A stretch of 64,000 bases of DNA from Longimicrobiales bacterium (GTDB taxonomy: Bacteria; Gemmatimonadota; Gemmatimonadetes; Longimicrobiales; Gaopeijiaceae): contig CBDDCX010000008.1 in the NCBI GenBank assembly GCA_965226375.1, forward strand, positions 608,001 through 672,000, given 5' to 3'. The position numbers are program-made. Of the stretch, positions 36,001 to 42,000 are shown piece by piece (position 1 is the first letter of the stretch; each line of letters opens with the position of its first letter).

Positions 36001-39000
36001 CGTCACGCACCGGCGCCGCGGCGACCCGGACGGGTTCGCTCCTCAAGGGAGCCTCGCCGAGACGCACACTGACCGTCCGTTCACGACCGTCGCGATAGAC
36101 GGTCACCCCGATCCGATCACCCGGACGCTTGCGGGCGATGCTCTGCTGCAGTTGACCGGTCCGGCCGACCGGCTGGTCGTCGATGGCCACGATCACGTCG
36201 TAGGCCAGGAGGCCAAACTCTTCCGCCGGGCCATCGGGGGTGATCTGGGTCACCTCCACACCGGAGACGGTGGGTAGGCCGTAGCTCTCGGCCGACACCG
36301 CGTCGACGCCGGTCATGGCGATACCGAGCCAGGCCCTGCGCACACGCCCGTACTCGACCAGATCCTCCATGACGCGTTTGGCCAGATCGATGGGAATGGC
36401 GAACCCGTACCCCTGATAGAATCCGGTCCTGCTCGTGATGGCCGAATTGATGCCCACCACCTGACCCCGCAGGTTGACCATGGGCCCACCGGAGTTACCC
36501 GGATTGATGACCGCGTCCGTCTGGATAAAGTCCTCGATCGCGAACCCTCTGGCATCCCGCGTCTCGGGGTTCTCCTGGAGTTCGCGTTGAAGCAGCGCCA
36601 GCGGCCGCCCGAGCGCACTGATGATGCCTACCGTCACGGTGTAGTCCAGCGGACGACTAGTACCTCCGAAGCCCGGATTACCGATGGCCACGATCCACTC
36701 GCCCACGCGCAGATCGTCGGAGCTCCCGAAGCTCAGGCTACCGAGGTTGTCCGCTTCGATCTTGATGACCGCCACGTCCGTGAAGGGATCCCGTCCCACC
36801 AACGTGGCTGGGAAGGACCTTCTGTCCTGAAGGAACACGGTCATGGCCGTGGCGTCCGCGACCACGTGGTTGTTCGTGAGGATGTATCCATCGGTGGAGA
36901 CGAGGAATCCGCTTCCACCCGAGACCTGGTCGGGCCGATCCCGCTGATTCTGCTCGGGGTTCCGGAAGAGCCTACTGGGCTGCTCTTGTGCCGCAGGAGC
37001 CTGCCTGCGCGCCTCGATTCGTACGACCGCCGGCGTCACCATCTCGGAGACGTTGACGAACGCATCGCTCAGGTCCAAGGCCGGCTGGACCGCCTCCACC
37101 GGAATCTGAGGCTGAGTCTCGAGGACCGGCATCGAGTGGGTCACGCCGGTCCACCCGAAGGCCGAGGCGATACCCAGCCCGAAAAGACAGGCCACCGTCG
37201 AGAAGAATACGATCTTCATCTTCGAACGCAGGGGGTCATACATATCAAGCACTTCCTTAAGTCCGGTTGATCATTGCGTGTCGCCGACCGAGATGCTCGG
37301 TCATGCTACACTAATACAAGCTCCGTCTTTAAAAGCTCCGTGTGTCTTCGATCCCAGGCCGCGGCTTTGCGTTGCCTGGCCGGGCGCTGCTCCCGCTACT
37401 ACCCCGCAAAAGCCCCGCACGGGCTCGAGGGTTTTCAGGCCCCTCTCCGAACCCGTCTGCCGCAAAGCGGCGGTAGCGTAGCGGGGTTCGGAGAGGGGCC
37501 TGAAAACCCTCCAAGCAACTTACGCGTCTTCGTCGACGATCTCGTAGTCCGCCTCGACCACTTCTTCTTCGTCCTCGCTGCCCTCGGCGGCCTCGCCCTC
37601 CGTACCCTCACCGCCTTCGCCTTCCTCGGACTCGGTTTCTGCGGCCTGGGACTGGTACATCTCCTGGCCGGCTGCACTGAAGGCCTGCATCAGCTCATCC
37701 CGGGCGGAGTTGAAGGCGGCGGCCTCGTCGCCCTTGAGGGCTTCCTTGGCGGCCTCCACGGCTTGGTCGAGACGCTCCTTCGTTTCCTCGGAGACCTGAT
37801 CGCCCCACTCGGCGGAGTCCTTCTCCACCTGGTAGACCAGGGAGTCGAGCTGGTTGCGGGCCTCGACCTTCTCTCTGCGCTGCTCGTCTTCGTCGGCGTG
37901 GGCCTCGGCGTCCTTCACCATCTTGTCGATCTCGGTGTCGCTGAGTCCGCTGGAGGACTCGATGCGGATCTTCTGCTCCTTGCCCGTGGTCTGGTCCTTG
38001 GCCGAGACATGGAGAATGCCGTTGGCGTCGATGTCGAACGTGACCTCGACCTGGGGCATGCCCCTCGGTGCCGGCGGAATGCCGGTGAGCTGGAACTTGC
38101 CGATGGTCTTGTTGTCGAGGGCCATCTTGCGCTCGCCCTGGAGCACGTGGATCTCGACCGTGGTCTGATTGTCCTCCGCCGTGGAGAAGATCTCGGCCTT
38201 CTCGGTGGGGATGGTCGTGTTGCGGTCGATCAGCGCGGTCATGACTCCGCCGAGCGTCTCGATCCCGAGCGACAGCGGGATCACGTCGAGCAGGAGAACG
38301 TCGGTCACGTCACCGGCCAGCACGCCGCCCTGGATGGACGCTCCAACTCCCACGACCTCGTCCGGGTTCACACCCTTGTGGGGGTCCTTGCCAAAGCACT
38401 CGGTGACCACCTCTTGGATCTTCGGAATCCGGGTCGAACCACCGACCAGGATGATCTCGTCGATCTCCGAGGGGTCGAGGCCGGCATCCTCGAGAGCCTG
38501 CTTCATGGGCGGGATGGTCCGCTGGACCAGATCGTCCACGAGCTGCTCGAGCTTGGCCCGGGTCAGCGAGTAGTTCAGGTGCTTCGGGCCCTCTTGCGTG
38601 GCTGTGATGAACGGAAGGTTGATATCGGTCTGCTGAGTCGAAGACAGCTCCATCTTGGCCTTCTCCGAGGCCTCCTTGAGGCGCTGCAGAGCCATGGCGT
38701 CCTTGGACAGGTCGATGCCCTGGTCCTTCTTGAACTCGGTGACGAGCCAGTTGATGATCTTCTGGTCGAAGTCGTCACCACCCAGGTGCGTGTCACCGTT
38801 GGTGGACTTTACCTCGAAGACGCCGTCGCCCAGCTCCAGGACGGAGATGTCGTACGTTCCACCGCCGAGGTCGAACACGGCGATCTTCTCATCGGCCTTT
38901 TTGTCCAAGCCGTACGCGAGAGCGGCGGCCGTGGGCTCGTTGATGATACGAAGTACCTCGAGGCCCGCGACTTTGCCGGCGTCCTTGGTCGCCTGCCGCT

Positions 39001-42000
39001 GGGCGTCGTTGAAGTAGGCCGGTACCGTAATCACGGCCTGGTCGACCTCCATGCCCAGGTAATCCTCGGCGGTCTGCTTCATCTTCTGCAGGATCATCGC
39101 CGAGATCTCGGGGGGTGTGAACGTCTTGTCCACGTTGGGCACCTTGATCTGGACCCGGCCCTTGCTGTCCGTCTCGACCGCGTAGGGGACCAGCTTCTGC
39201 TCTTCGGTCACCTCGTCGCCCTTACGGCCCATGAAACGCTTGATGGAGAAGATGGTGTTCTCAGGGTTCGTGATGGCCTGTCTCCGTGCCACCTGACCCA
39301 CGAGACGCTCGCCGTCCTTGGTGAAGGCCACGACGGACGGCGTCGTGCGTCCGCCCTCGGAGTTGGGGATGACGACCGGCTCGCCGCCCTCCATGACGGC
39401 GACCACCGAGTTGGTCGTCCCCAGGTCGATGCCGATTACCTTTCCCATGTCTGCTCCTTTATGGACCTACCGTGTATGTGCTGAGCCCCGAGCGGGGTGT
39501 TACTCATGTTCTCCTGGCACGACCTGTGCAATGATCATGCCCAGTGAGAGGCTCAAAAAGCCGCCAAACTGGCGCCTTTCTAGTAACACCCTGCCAAAAT
39601 GGCGGACTTTTGAAGCGAGTGGTCGGGGGAGGGTGGTGTGGGTGGGGCAGACGCGAGCTGGTTCACTCGACAGAGGCTCGCTTGCAGCCGTCCCCAACCG
39701 CGAGGCATGTTGGACAGGTTACGGCAACCTCTTCGCGTCTTCGGCGCAGGTGCATCATGCCAAAACCCACCAGCCCTCACTCGTCGTCGCCCTCACAAGC
39801 CTTCCTCAGCTCCCTCGAGCTCAGCCGGCGTGAGCTGCTCGCCGGAGCGGGCGCCGGCGCCGCAGCCCTCTTTCTCGAGCAACGCGGCCTCCAGGCCGAG
39901 ACGCCGTCACGTACGGCTTCCACCGTGCAGAGCCCGACCGTCGTGTTCGCCAACACCACGGTCGTGAACGCCGATGCCGTGCAGAAGAACGTGGCGCTCG
40001 CAGTCGAAGGCTCGAACATCTCAGCGATCGGCCCGACCGACACAGTCCTCCAGAGCCATCCCCGAGCCGAGGTTTACGACGGACGGGGAAAAGCGCTACT
40101 TCCGGGCTTGATCAACTGTCACGCCCATATGGGGGCGGTGATCGCGCGCGGATTCAACGAGGACTTCGGATTCCCCAACAGCGCTCGACTGGCGGTCTCA
40201 CCCAACAGCCTCCTCGAAGGGGAGGAGCGCACCCTGATGGTGAGGGTGGCCGCGCTGGAGGCCATCCGGACTGGGACCACCACGATCGTGGAGAACGTCG
40301 GCAACATCCAACGGCACGCGGCGGCGTTGGCCGAGTCGGGTCTTCGCTGCGTGTTCGCGGAGTCGGTTCGGGACGCCTCAAACGTTCGTGGTCCGATGTC
40401 CCCGGAGAGGCTCGTCCTGAGCGAGGAGCCGAGGTTCTCGCCGAGGCTGCGCGACGAGGGCCTTCAGCGCATCAACGATCTGTTCACGACATGGCACGGT
40501 GCCGAGCAGGGGCGGATCAGCGTGTTCCCGGCGGCGGGACTCACCGAGACCTCGTCTCCCGAGCTCCTGCGGGCGGTCCGGGCTTTCGCCGAAGAACACG
40601 ATGTCGGGTATACCATCCATCTGAATCAGAGCCGTGCCGAGTTCGAGTTCATGGTTAGGTACCACGGCATCCGTCCGGCGGAGTATCTCGATCGGCACGA
40701 CTTCTTGGGCCCCCGGCTGTTCGCCGCGCACGCCAGATACGTCAACGAGTCCGAGATCGAGCTGCTCGGTAGGTCCGGCAGTACCATCTCGCACCAGGCC
40801 GCGATGGCGGCGAACCGAGGCGTGAGTCCACCGATTCCGGGTCTGCGAGCGGCGGGCTGCACCATCGCTCTCGGGACCGACAACAACACCAACGACGTGT
40901 TCGAGGTGATGCGCATCGCTCTCGTGACGGAACGGATCAGGCGCAATCGGGACGGGGACGAGGTCCCCGGTCTCCAGCCCCAGCCGGAAGACATGCTCGC
41001 GGACGCGACACAAGGCGGCGCGCGGGCGGTGCAGCAGCAGGAGCTCCTCGGCACGCTCGAGGTCGGCAAGAAAGCAGACCTTTTCGTCCTGGATCCCCAG
41101 CGTGCTCACCTCGTGCCGGCGGGCCGTATCCTGTCCGCGGTGGTTCACAGCGGTCACCCCGGCGACATCGAGTCGGTCATGATCGATGGGCGGTTCGTCA
41201 TGCGCGACCGCACGGTCCTCACGATGGACGAGGAGAGCATCATCAGAGAGGCGGACGCGGTAGGGCGGCGGGTCTGGGACCAGGTGTTGGAGGCCAGCCC
41301 GATTACGGTGCCGCGGTTAAGGCGGTAGCGCTGAGCCACGAGGAGAGTCTGGAGAGGGCCAGTTCGATGGCGTAGTGGCCTTTGGGGGCGGACCCCACCT
41401 CGGCACCTCCGTATCCCCGTAGAACGCTGGAGCGTCCGGGCTCGCCCGCGTCTTCCGGAACGGAGCGTCAGGCTGTATTTCGGGACGGCTAAGCGAGTTC
41501 GCGAGGTTCCGAACGAGGTAGACGGACATCGCGGACATGGCTACCGGGGCTTCCCAGCTCGCGTCCGGAAGGAAGTTGTCGCGCTGCTGGTGGTTCACGT
41601 TGTCTAGGTAGTACTGCCAGGCCTGCCGGTTCGTCTCCCGGTTCCCATCGACCGTGAAGCCGGGCATGAGGTAAACGCCGGGCACACCGGCGAGAAGGAA
41701 CGAGTACTGGTCGGAGCGGAACAGGAGCGCCTGGGCCGCCGCGAAGGGCGGGATCCGATAGCGCTCGTACGACGTGCCATACTCCTCACCGGCCTGCTCG
41801 AGGAACGGCCCGAGCGTCGAGTATTCTTCACCGAAGGCGAGAAAATCGTCCGAGGCTTGCCCGTCCAGCCCTCCGTCATGGTTGATGGCGGCCACGGTCT
41901 TCTCCATCGGGAAGACGGGGTTCCGCACGTAGTACCACGAGCCCAATAGCCCCCCCTCCTCAGCTCCCATGGCGAGGAAGAGCACCGAGCGGGCCATGTC

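What a model noticed while it worked through the whole genome (the two positions that open the first line are those of the whole stretch)
37520..39620. Sigma54-driven chaperone regulon with a new 13-bp activator palindrome (dnaK, hsp20, lon)
dnaK is transcribed from a sigma54 (-24/-12) promoter preceded by one or two palindromes YGYCA-N3-TGRCR, a layout kept across the class. hsp20 (C2:34228) shows the same pair and lon (C6:614979) a looser one, while CIRCE/HrcA is confined to groES. The likely activator is the single-copy sigma54 enhancer-binding protein g2400, encoded beside the engB-lon-clpX-clpP cluster about 10 kb from dnaK.
Evidence so far: Sites in G000. Upstream of 29 dnaK orthologues: sigma54 box 25, palindrome 22, both in the right order 18; control recA upstream regions 0 of 30 for each. 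hsp20 homologues: 9, 8 and 4 of 20. g2400 has one orthologue in 29 of 30 genomes, next to engB or clpX in about half of them. Among the heat-shock genes inspected a CIRCE lies only at groES. No paper found.
(Added by a program. Inside this text positions count along the whole contig: contig position 608,001 is position 1 of the stretch shown here. "Call 12" and the like, gene names such as g00115 and contig names such as C1 are that model's own, and its searches are not shown. The text may have been shortened before it was handed on; [...] marks where a part breaks off. The agent that wrote the report below was given it as the finding of a first reader that could run no searches.)

Follow-up and report, generated by a model that had tools for sequence, protein, structure and literature searches.

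The report
Sigma-54 activator of chaperone genes
In this uncultured Gemmatimonadota bacterium and its relatives, the chaperone genes dnaK and hsp20 and the protease gene lon sit behind sigma-54 promoters with a conserved 13-base palindrome, very probably bound by one unstudied ATP-driven activator that Bacteroidota share, which gives a testable answer to how these bacteria switch on protein-repair genes.

Summary
Confirmed, and wider than reported. dnaK has a sigma54 box (39527-39542, minus strand) and two palindromes (39562, 39592). Box plus palindrome occur at 83 of 89 Gemmatimonadota dnaK genes (shuffles 0.3), 19 of 30 hsp20 and 20 of 30 lon (loose rule; control 0 of 30). The sites are phased with the DNA helix.

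The activator assignment (window 26661-28319) no longer rests on synteny. It is the only sigma54 activator in four Gemmatimonadota genomes and one Bacteroidota genome that keep the sites. The palindrome also marks its own transcription unit in 26 of 38 loci. Its recognition helix is conserved into Bacteroidota, where the same palindrome emerges de novo.

Unusual features: a receiver domain without the phosphoryl-accepting Asp, and a lone site centred near -41 at 39-48 of 89 dnaK promoters.

Sigma54 promoters at chaperone genes are published for Flavobacterium, with the activator unidentified. I found no paper on the palindrome or activator. This scan noted the same wiring earlier on other DNA, including a Gemmatimonadota-like genome. 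Binding, transcription starts here and heat induction are untested.

The parts
37520..39448 (-). dnaK (Hsp70), target gene
   Evidence: Pfam HSP70 E 4e-270
39527..39542 (-). sigma54 -24/-12 promoter of dnaK; predicted start near 39516
   Evidence: GG-N10-GC box; counterpart in 87 of 89 orthologous regions; start position inferred from the box
39562..39574 (.). proximal activator palindrome, centre about -52
   Evidence: exact match, 19 bp from the box
39592..39604 (.). distal activator palindrome, centre about -82
   Evidence: exact match, 49 bp from the box, 30 bp from the proximal site; top-scoring intergenic site of the genome
26661..28319 (+). sigma54 enhancer-binding protein, the proposed activator: pseudo-receiver, AAA+ with GAFTGA, family-specific helix, long flexible linker, Fis-type helix-turn-helix
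   Evidence: Pfam; model; below the cut-off of the 25 NCBIfam families shown; family in 115 of 121 genomes
24865..24877 (.). palindrome without a sigma54 box in front of gcvT-moaB-activator; proposed autoregulatory operator
   Evidence: score 17, one of five intergenic sites above 15 in the genome; counterpart above 12 in 26 of 38 relatives
24993..26108 (+). gcvT, first gene of the activator's probable transcription unit
   Evidence: Pfam GCV_T, gene call
26128..26664 (+). moaB/mogA-like gene overlapping the activator's start
   Evidence: NCBIfam TIGR00177 above cut-off
28939..35348 (-). engB-lon-clpX-clpP-tig cluster (context; no box plus site found at this lon paralogue or at clpP)
   Evidence: Pfam; promoter scan

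Best explanation
dnaK, hsp20 and one lon paralogue are transcribed by sigma54 RNA polymerase and switched on by the enhancer-binding protein at 26661-28319. Its helix-turn-helix dimer binds cTGCCA-N3-TGGCAg sites placed at whole helical turns upstream of the -24 element, so that its AAA+ ring reaches sigma54 on one face of the DNA and opens the promoter. The same protein binds one site around the start of its own sigma70-type promoter, probably as negative feedback. groES/EL stays under HrcA-CIRCE in this phylum. The protein is one orthologous family shared with Bacteroidota and Marinisomatota, where it lacks the N-terminal domain. Shown by sequence comparison: conserved boxes and sites, phasing, family membership, sole-activator genomes, the site at its own promoter, loss of the phospho-Asp. 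From established knowledge: sigma54 promoters need such an activator. Inferred: direct binding, autorepression, activation from the -41 site without a long DNA loop, and response to heat or misfolded protein. For the signal I favour control by chaperone availability or a partner protein over phosphorylation; that step alone is about 0.4.
For: Box plus palindrome at 83 of 89 dnaK, shuffles 0.3; 19 of 30 hsp20, shuffles 0; lon 20 of 30 against control 0 of 30. Gaps cluster at 8, 19, 30, 40, 50, 60, 71 and on to 172 bp: R 0.65 at 10.2 bp with one value per family and cluster, n 34; R 0.86 at 10.5 bp in the independent hsp20 set, n 25. G109, G054, G078 and G096 each have one full PF00158 match with all candidates scored, it is this family, and their dnaK promoters carry box and sites; likewise G130 in Bacteroidota. 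A site above 12 bits precedes the activator's transcription unit in 26 of 38 loci (background 0.13 per 6.5 kb); above 15 in 19 of 38 (0.025). It follows whichever gene comes first, and lies directly before the activator gene in 7 of 7 loci of the other classes. Recognition helix ERT(L/I)YRK in all 19 aligned members from three phyla; one branch in the AAA+ tree, SH-aLRT 92. De novo search in Bacteroidota alone returns cTGaCA-N3-TGtCAg; the Gemmatimonadota matrix scores 18 of 42 of those promoters, shuffles 1.6. Mapped sigma54 starts of F. psychrophilum groES, clpB, grpE and htpG show the downstream half-site 12-13 bp before the box (read by eye). P. gingivalis Tn-seq lists rpoN, dnaK, groES/EL and the syntenic activator as essential.
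Against: No binding, start-site or induction data for any Gemmatimonadota. The family was not found in 6 of 121 genomes (G051, G086, G072, G087, G019, G115; all drafts of 80-160 contigs), and G051 and G086 keep box and site at dnaK. The four sole-activator Gemmatimonadota genomes are only two lineages, three being one genus. 12 of 38 loci lack a strong site before the activator's operon, including sole-activator G054. 11 of 30 hsp20 and 10 of 30 lon regions lack the pair. grpE and both dnaJ of this genome show no box. The matrix was trained on dnaK regions, so dnaK matrix scores are circular. The Bacteroidota phase is shifted by 3-4 bp and the third base differs. Tree support is below 95 and from the quick method. 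The P. gingivalis essentiality could be polar on the downstream essential lipoprotein and secG genes.
Confidence: 0.82

Rival explanations
1. The promoter is sigma54-dependent and this protein activates it, but constitutively or by growth state rather than by heat or misfolded protein: a housekeeping activator of essential protein-quality genes.
For: rpoN, dnaK and the syntenic activator are essential in unstressed P. gingivalis. The Bacteroidota form has no sensor domain. F. psychrophilum sigma54 promoters were reported induced on blood agar, by salt, plasma and fresh water. groES keeps CIRCE in 25 of 27 relatives.
Against: The targets are classical heat-shock genes, including hsp20, which is usually stress-induced (general knowledge). 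A self-site and a retained pseudo-receiver (38 of 38) suggest regulated output.
Confidence: 0.3
2. The palindrome is the operator of another, non-AAA+ factor (for example a repressor sitting next to the -24 element), while the activator works from solution or from other sites.
For: 59-62 of 89 dnaK promoters have a site within 11 bp of the box, much closer than the 80-150 bp usual for enhancers. At the activator's own operon the site looks like an operator. Two drafts have sites but no family member.
Against: Helical phasing out to 170 bp and paired sites 20-31 bp apart fit an oligomeric activator, not steric repression. The site follows the activator's transcription unit through gene-order changes. 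Its core CCA-N3-TGG resembles the centre of the NtrC site TGCACC(A/T)4TGGTGCA listed in PMC4987338, though spaced differently. The recognition helix is invariant wherever the motif is found.
Confidence: 0.1
3. Another of the five sigma54 activators of this genome is the cognate one, for example the NtrC-like protein at C7:372663, which has a box and a TGACA-N3-TGTCA site beside its own operon.
For: That site scores 14 with the matrix, 17 bp from a strong box.
Against: Genomes whose only activator is the 26661 family keep the dnaK sites. The other proteins have different recognition helices; the C7 protein has an ordinary receiver and a probable sensor kinase next door.
Confidence: 0.04
4. The palindromes are inverted copies of the sigma54 -24 element (TGGCA) that bind sigma54 itself, or chance GC-rich repeats.
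For: The Gemmatimonadota half-site equals the -24 pentamer. 110 exact 13-mers occur in the genome.
Against: The Bacteroidota form is TGACA or TGTCA, not a -24 element. Shuffle and control-gene rates are near zero. A reverse box overlapping the dnaK promoter occurs in 1 of 89 only.
Confidence: 0.03

Closest known systems
sigma54 (motif SM4) promoters of groES-EL, lon, dnaK, grpE-dnaJ, htpG and clpB in Flavobacterium psychrophilum (PMC9723704; passages and supplementary rows seen)
   Same: Same promoter class at the same kind of genes; the half-site is visible 12-13 bp before the box in four mapped promoters; a sigma54 regulator gene lies four locus tags from groES.
   Different: The paper names neither the activator nor a binding site ('palindrom' 0 hits in text and supplements). 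In Gemmatimonadota groES is under CIRCE and the activator carries a pseudo-receiver.
Predicted sigma54 control of chaperones and proteases in Bacteroidota and Planctomycetota (PMC12316311; passages and one supplementary search seen)
   Same: sigma54 boxes at dnaK, ibpA-type hsp20, lon and other quality-control genes.
   Different: Matrix prediction only; Gemmatimonadota absent from the main text and present in one supplementary file (first row seen: a domain listing for Gemmatimonas aurantiaca); no activator or site in the passages seen.
NtrC, ZraR, PspF and FleQ-type bacterial enhancer-binding proteins (PMC4987338 passages; fold search)
   Same: AAA+ domain with GAFTGA, Fis-type helix-turn-helix, paired palindromic sites; self-repression at its own promoter as recalled for several such proteins.
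   Different: No phospho-Asp and no adjacent kinase; an extra conserved amphipathic helix and a long low-confidence linker before the DNA-binding domain; sites often at -41 to -82 rather than 80-150 bp upstream; below the cut-off of all 25 named families shown.
HsfA/HsfB of Myxococcus xanthus (seen only as a table row and a reference title in PMC3892784)
   Same: An NtrC-like activator of a heat-shock lon gene.
   Different: HsfA is a phosphorylated response regulator with a cognate kinase; orthology and binding site were not tested here.
HrcA-CIRCE and sigma32 heat-shock regulons (recalled)
   Same: Same class of target genes; HrcA-CIRCE coexists here at groES.
   Different: No CIRCE at 89 of 89 dnaK regions; activation by ATP hydrolysis instead of derepression or sigma exchange.

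Membership tests
sigma54-dependent promoter | GG at -24 and GC at -12, ten bases apart | tested here: met
   39527-39542; 87 of 89 orthologues
sigma54-dependent promoter | rpoN present in the genome | tested here: met
   gene at C8:1139188 with the RpoN box motif
sigma54-dependent promoter | transcription start about 12 bases after the GC, lost without rpoN | not testable with these tools
   RNA runs available only as contigs, mostly other organisms' dnaK
bacterial enhancer-binding protein | AAA+ domain with Walker A, Walker B and GAFTGA loop | tested here: met
   PF00158 E 5e-71; GAFTGA in 28 and GSFTGA in 10 of 38 orthologues
bacterial enhancer-binding protein | C-terminal Fis-type helix-turn-helix | tested here: met
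   PF02954; invariant ERTxYRK
bacterial enhancer-binding protein | sites usually 80-150 bp upstream with DNA looping | tested here: inconclusive
   met in families f11, f12 and part of f10; 39-48 of 89 dnaK promoters have only a site within 11 bp of the box
bacterial enhancer-binding protein | binds the site and activates with ATP hydrolysis | not testable with these tools
   needs protein and in vitro transcription
NtrC-type phosphorylated response regulator | receiver domain with the phosphoryl-accepting Asp after strand 3 | tested here: not met
   receiver-like (beta-alpha)5 fold at pLDDT about 90 but Thr in 33, Ser in 3 and unparsed in 2 of 38
NtrC-type phosphorylated response regulator | adjacent cognate histidine kinase | tested here: not met
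   neighbours here are gcvT, moaB and a small ORF without Pfam match; relatives were screened only for eight marker genes
HrcA-CIRCE regulon | CIRCE inverted repeat upstream | tested here: not met
   0 of 89 dnaK regions; met at groES in 25 of 27
named NCBIfam activators (NtrC, NifA, ZraR, PspF, AtoC and others) | score above the curated cut-off | tested here: not met
   best 364 bits against a cut-off of 529; 25 of 29 families shown
heat-shock regulon | induction by heat or misfolded protein | not testable with these tools
   no expression data for this phylum found

The most novel reading that the evidence does not exclude
One ancient AAA+ activator family is the master switch of the protein-quality response across Gemmatimonadota, Bacteroidota and Marinisomatota, in place of sigma32. 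It needs no kinase, senses chaperone load through its pseudo-receiver or conserved C-terminal helix (a bacterial parallel of HSF1 titration), often works from a single site touching the promoter without a DNA loop, represses its own gene, and explains why sigma54 is essential in some Bacteroidota.
Probability: 0.3. Interest if true: 0.85.

Novelty: new variant of a known kind. Interest (0 to 1): 0.64.

Why it matters
Textbook heat-shock control uses sigma32 or repressors such as HrcA. For Bacteroidota, which include dominant gut and marine bacteria, the chaperone genes are known to have sigma54 promoters, but the activator has been left open. This work names one protein and one 13-base site, supported by elimination and by a site at the protein's own promoter, and shows the wiring extends to Gemmatimonadota. 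It can be tested at once in Flavobacterium johnsoniae or Bacteroides thetaiotaomicron. It offers a reason for rpoN being essential in Porphyromonas. It also raises two mechanistic questions for the enhancer field: activation from a site at about -41, and signalling without phosphorylation.

Tried and rejected
A reverse-strand sigma54-like box overlapping the dnaK -12 element (39515-39531, plus strand) occurs in 1 of 89 regions and was rejected as chance. A strong palindrome before a RpoD-like sigma gene (C6:553967) is not conserved, 2 of 30 above 12 bits, and that set served as the negative control. grpE, both dnaJ, clpC, clpP, hslV, ftsH, rpoN and the window's lon paralogue show no box plus site in this genome; clpB and htpG were not found by motif. 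The apparent box for asd on C2 shares the hsp20 palindromes but is out of phase by about 3 bp and was not tested in relatives. RNA runs: only contigs, mostly other organisms' dnaK, uninformative. Complex prediction of two copies of the conserved helix gave no verdict. The full-length model is poor in the AAA+ region (mean pLDDT 61) and the fold search added nothing beyond known activators. The careful tree did not finish and the quick tree was used. Papers that gave nothing on this motif in the passages seen: PMC4641369, PMC3162934, PMC7366714. The Dokdonia MED134 genome paper, which describes a sigma54 regulon, was not held and may bear on novelty. Linker length against site distance (rho 0.61, n 19) is confounded by family and not relied on.
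Full report
OBSERVATION. The genome is a Gemmatimonadota: the closest named relatives of the activator are Gemmatimonadetes and Longimicrobiales records. dnaK occupies 37520-39448 on the minus strand. Ninety-four bases before its start lies GGGCATGATCATTGCA (39542-39527), a GG-N10-GC sigma54 box. Two exact palindromes lie 19 and 49 bp further upstream, at 39562 and 39592. If the start is 12 bases after the GC (inferred, near 39516), their centres are about -52 and -82. The only CIRCE with at most three mismatches is before groES. The 13-mer alone is common (110 copies); the pair is not (8 of 1477 upstream regions).

CONSERVATION. Of 121 genomes sampled across the phylum, 119 had a dnaK match. 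I took 90 upstream regions: the 30 best-scoring and 60 chosen to cover the families. One (G113) did not parse. Of 89, 87 have the box, 83 the box plus a palindrome with at most one mismatch and 46 an exact one; shuffles give 2.6, 0.3 and 0.05. The consensus is cTGCCA-N3-TGGCAg, with T at the third base in about 14%. All 12 families, including the other classes, show it. For hsp20, the 30 best loci of 99 genomes gave 24 boxes and 19 pairs; shuffles 4.6 and 0. For lon, the 30 best of 103 gave 9 pairs on the strict pass (control gene 1 of 30) and 20 with a box rule loosened after I had looked at the sequences (control 0 of 30). groES has a CIRCE in 25 of 27 parsed loci of 30; dnaK has none in 89.

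HELICAL PHASE. Gaps between site and box fall at 8, 19, 30, 40, 50, 60, 71, 80, 89, 110, 141 and 172 bp. With one value per family and cluster, R is 0.65 at 10.2 bp and 0.08-0.17 at 9 or 12 bp, n 34 (kin are not independent). The hsp20 set, not used for training, gives R 0.86 at 10.5 bp with the same phase. This is what a protein that must face the polymerase predicts. In the two largest families the site is 8-9 bp from the box, centred near -41, and 39 to 48 of 89 promoters, depending on threshold, have no other site within 300 bp. Enhancers are usually 80-150 bp away (PMC4987338, passage).

THE ACTIVATOR. The genome has five true sigma54 activators. The one at 26661-28319 has an intact GAFTGA, a Fis-type helix-turn-helix and a family-specific helix, and reaches no curated cut-off among the 25 families shown. 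A profile of its C-terminal part finds it in 113 of 121 genomes, nearly always once. Two more carry it cut at a contig end; six fragmented drafts lack a match, and two of these keep the dnaK sites, which counts against until closed genomes are checked.

Three lines point to it beyond synteny. First, elimination: G109, G054, G078 and G096 have a single full PF00158 match with all candidates scored, it is this family, and their dnaK promoters have box and sites. Three of the four are one genus. Second, a site at its own promoter: of 40 loci fetched, 38 parsed; 26 have a site above 12 bits upstream of the activator, against 0.13 expected per 6.5 kb, and 19 above 15, against 0.025. The site has no sigma54 box and often follows a sigma70-like -10 word (read by eye). 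It sits before whichever gene leads the unit: the activator itself in 7 of 7 loci of the other classes, otherwise mostly moaB, gcvT or argF; two of the 26 lie before more distant genes. In this window it is at 24865-24877. Twelve loci lack it. Third, the recognition helix ERT(L/I)YRK is invariant in 19 aligned members from Gemmatimonadota, Marinisomatota and Bacteroidota. The 33 labelled members plus one truncated copy form one branch of a quick AAA+ tree of 90 rows, SH-aLRT 92; only two of them come from the Bacteroidota sample, because my pattern missed the others.

BACTEROIDOTA. Of 55 dnaK or hsp20-dnaK regions (51 from the phylum of Chitinophaga, 4 from other phyla), 46 have a box; six of the nine misses were fetched too short. 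A palindrome search on these alone returned cTGaCA-N3-TGtCAg. Among the 42 Bacteroidota promoters, 37 have the site (shuffles 2.9; one row was mis-windowed), phased at 10.5 bp with an offset of 3-4 bp; the Gemmatimonadota matrix finds 18 of 42 (shuffles 1.6). G130 has one activator, a sensor-less member of this family, and four two-activator genomes each have one member. In the published start-site table of Flavobacterium psychrophilum, the windows for groES, clpB, grpE and htpG show the downstream half-site 12-13 bp before the box; lon is unclear and the dnaK row seen starts too late (read by eye). In Porphyromonas gingivalis the essential-gene table lists rpoN, dnaK, groES/EL and PGN_0261, a 411-codon sigma54 regulator before a 173-codon lipoprotein and secG (PMC3547785, passages and Table S1 rows). 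The Chitinophaga member has the same length and neighbours, so PGN_0261 is a member by synteny, not by sequence test, and polarity is not excluded.

MECHANISM. The N-terminal 120 residues fold as a receiver domain, but the phosphoryl-accepting Asp is Thr or Ser in all 36 of 38 orthologues that parsed, no kinase is adjacent here, and Bacteroidota members lack the domain. Phosphorylation is therefore unlikely to be the signal. I infer that dimers bound to phased sites, tethered by the long flexible linker, assemble the AAA+ ring at sigma54, and that the protein represses its own promoter. The trigger is inferred: chaperone titration or a partner protein is my preferred guess, with a constitutive role as the main rival.

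WHAT IS KNOWN. sigma54 promoters at chaperone genes are mapped in F. psychrophilum, where the authors leave the activator open among three candidates (PMC9723704, passages and supplement searches). They are predicted for Bacteroidota and Planctomycetota (PMC12316311, passages). rpoN is called essential in P. gingivalis (PMC11225630, passage). Myxococcus HsfA is a kinase-controlled precedent for an NtrC-like heat-shock activator (table row and reference title only). Ten full-text searches showed no paper naming this palindrome or activator; I saw only the top listings, the library lacks most subscription papers, and the Dokdonia paper was not held. Earlier notes of this scan report the same wiring in Bacteroidota, in a Gemmatimonadota-like genome, and in Planctomycetota, Verrucomicrobiota, Eisenbacteria and Omnitrophota. 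They are unchecked leads, not support; one of them mentions a site at the activator's own operon in Bacteroidota. Unpublished genomes G093, G053 and G222 each contribute single rows to the counts; no claim depends on them.

VERDICT. A real, deeply conserved regulon. The promoter class is known; the activator family, its site, the self-site, the pseudo-receiver and the promoter-adjacent geometry were not found in print. New variant of a known kind; interest 0.64.

Noticed in passing
dnaK promoters of families f4 and f5 (loci L105-L179): Where the site lies 8-9 bp from the box, the -24 element drifts from GGCA to GGTA (26 of 31 in f4) or GGCC/GGTC (16 of 22 in f5), while all 28 promoters with only distal sites keep GGCA. 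The adjacent activator may compensate for a weak -24 element.
   Followed up: partly
lon promoters of family f5 (L403-L420): The box reads GGAAC, and a conserved block with further palindromes and an AAAGTTGCA word lies upstream; a second factor or an IHF-like site is possible.
   Followed up: no
L329, L342, L343 (groES of G026, G010, G102): groES has both a CIRCE and a sigma54 box with palindromes in 3 of 27 relatives: dual control, or a stage between the Bacteroidota and Gemmatimonadota wiring.
   Followed up: no
window 21240-24762: A vapBC-like pair, a pemK/mazF-like ORF, a Fic-domain gene and an outer-membrane beta-barrel gene sit between hslU and gcvT, where relatives have argF or nothing; probably an insertion. 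The toxin-antitoxin labels are from recalled sequence likeness.
   Followed up: no
window 4784-12142: A second sigma54 activator (PilR-like) followed by a glycosyltransferase, two TPR membrane proteins and two type IV pilin genes; the first pilin has a weak box with an exact palindrome at 10919, 145 bp upstream.
   Followed up: no
G000 C7:371446 (L005): Strong sigma54 box with a TGACA-N3-TGTCA site before an ABC ATPase, an NtrC-like activator and a probable kinase; a related motif that may be read by a different activator.
   Followed up: partly
window 27800-28316 (activator C-terminus): A conserved amphipathic helix (ELEFIFRTLVDLR, and ERELI/ERDIL forms in other phyla) followed by a long variable linker marks the family; no Pfam match covers it.
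   Followed up: partly
Bacteroidota loci L197-L246: Many have hsp20 directly upstream of dnaK, with the box and up to four phased sites in front of hsp20; the -12 element often reads TTGA or TTGT.
   Followed up: partly
Activator and dnaK lie within 25 kb in most of the own order and in f6, f7, f9, f11, f12, but 107-193 kb apart in all 19 f4, f5 and f8 genomes compared; synteny alone would have been a weak argument.
   Followed up: yes
G000 C8:842588: hrcA is followed by dnaJ but has no CIRCE in front, and the only CIRCE in the assembly is at groES.
   Followed up: partly
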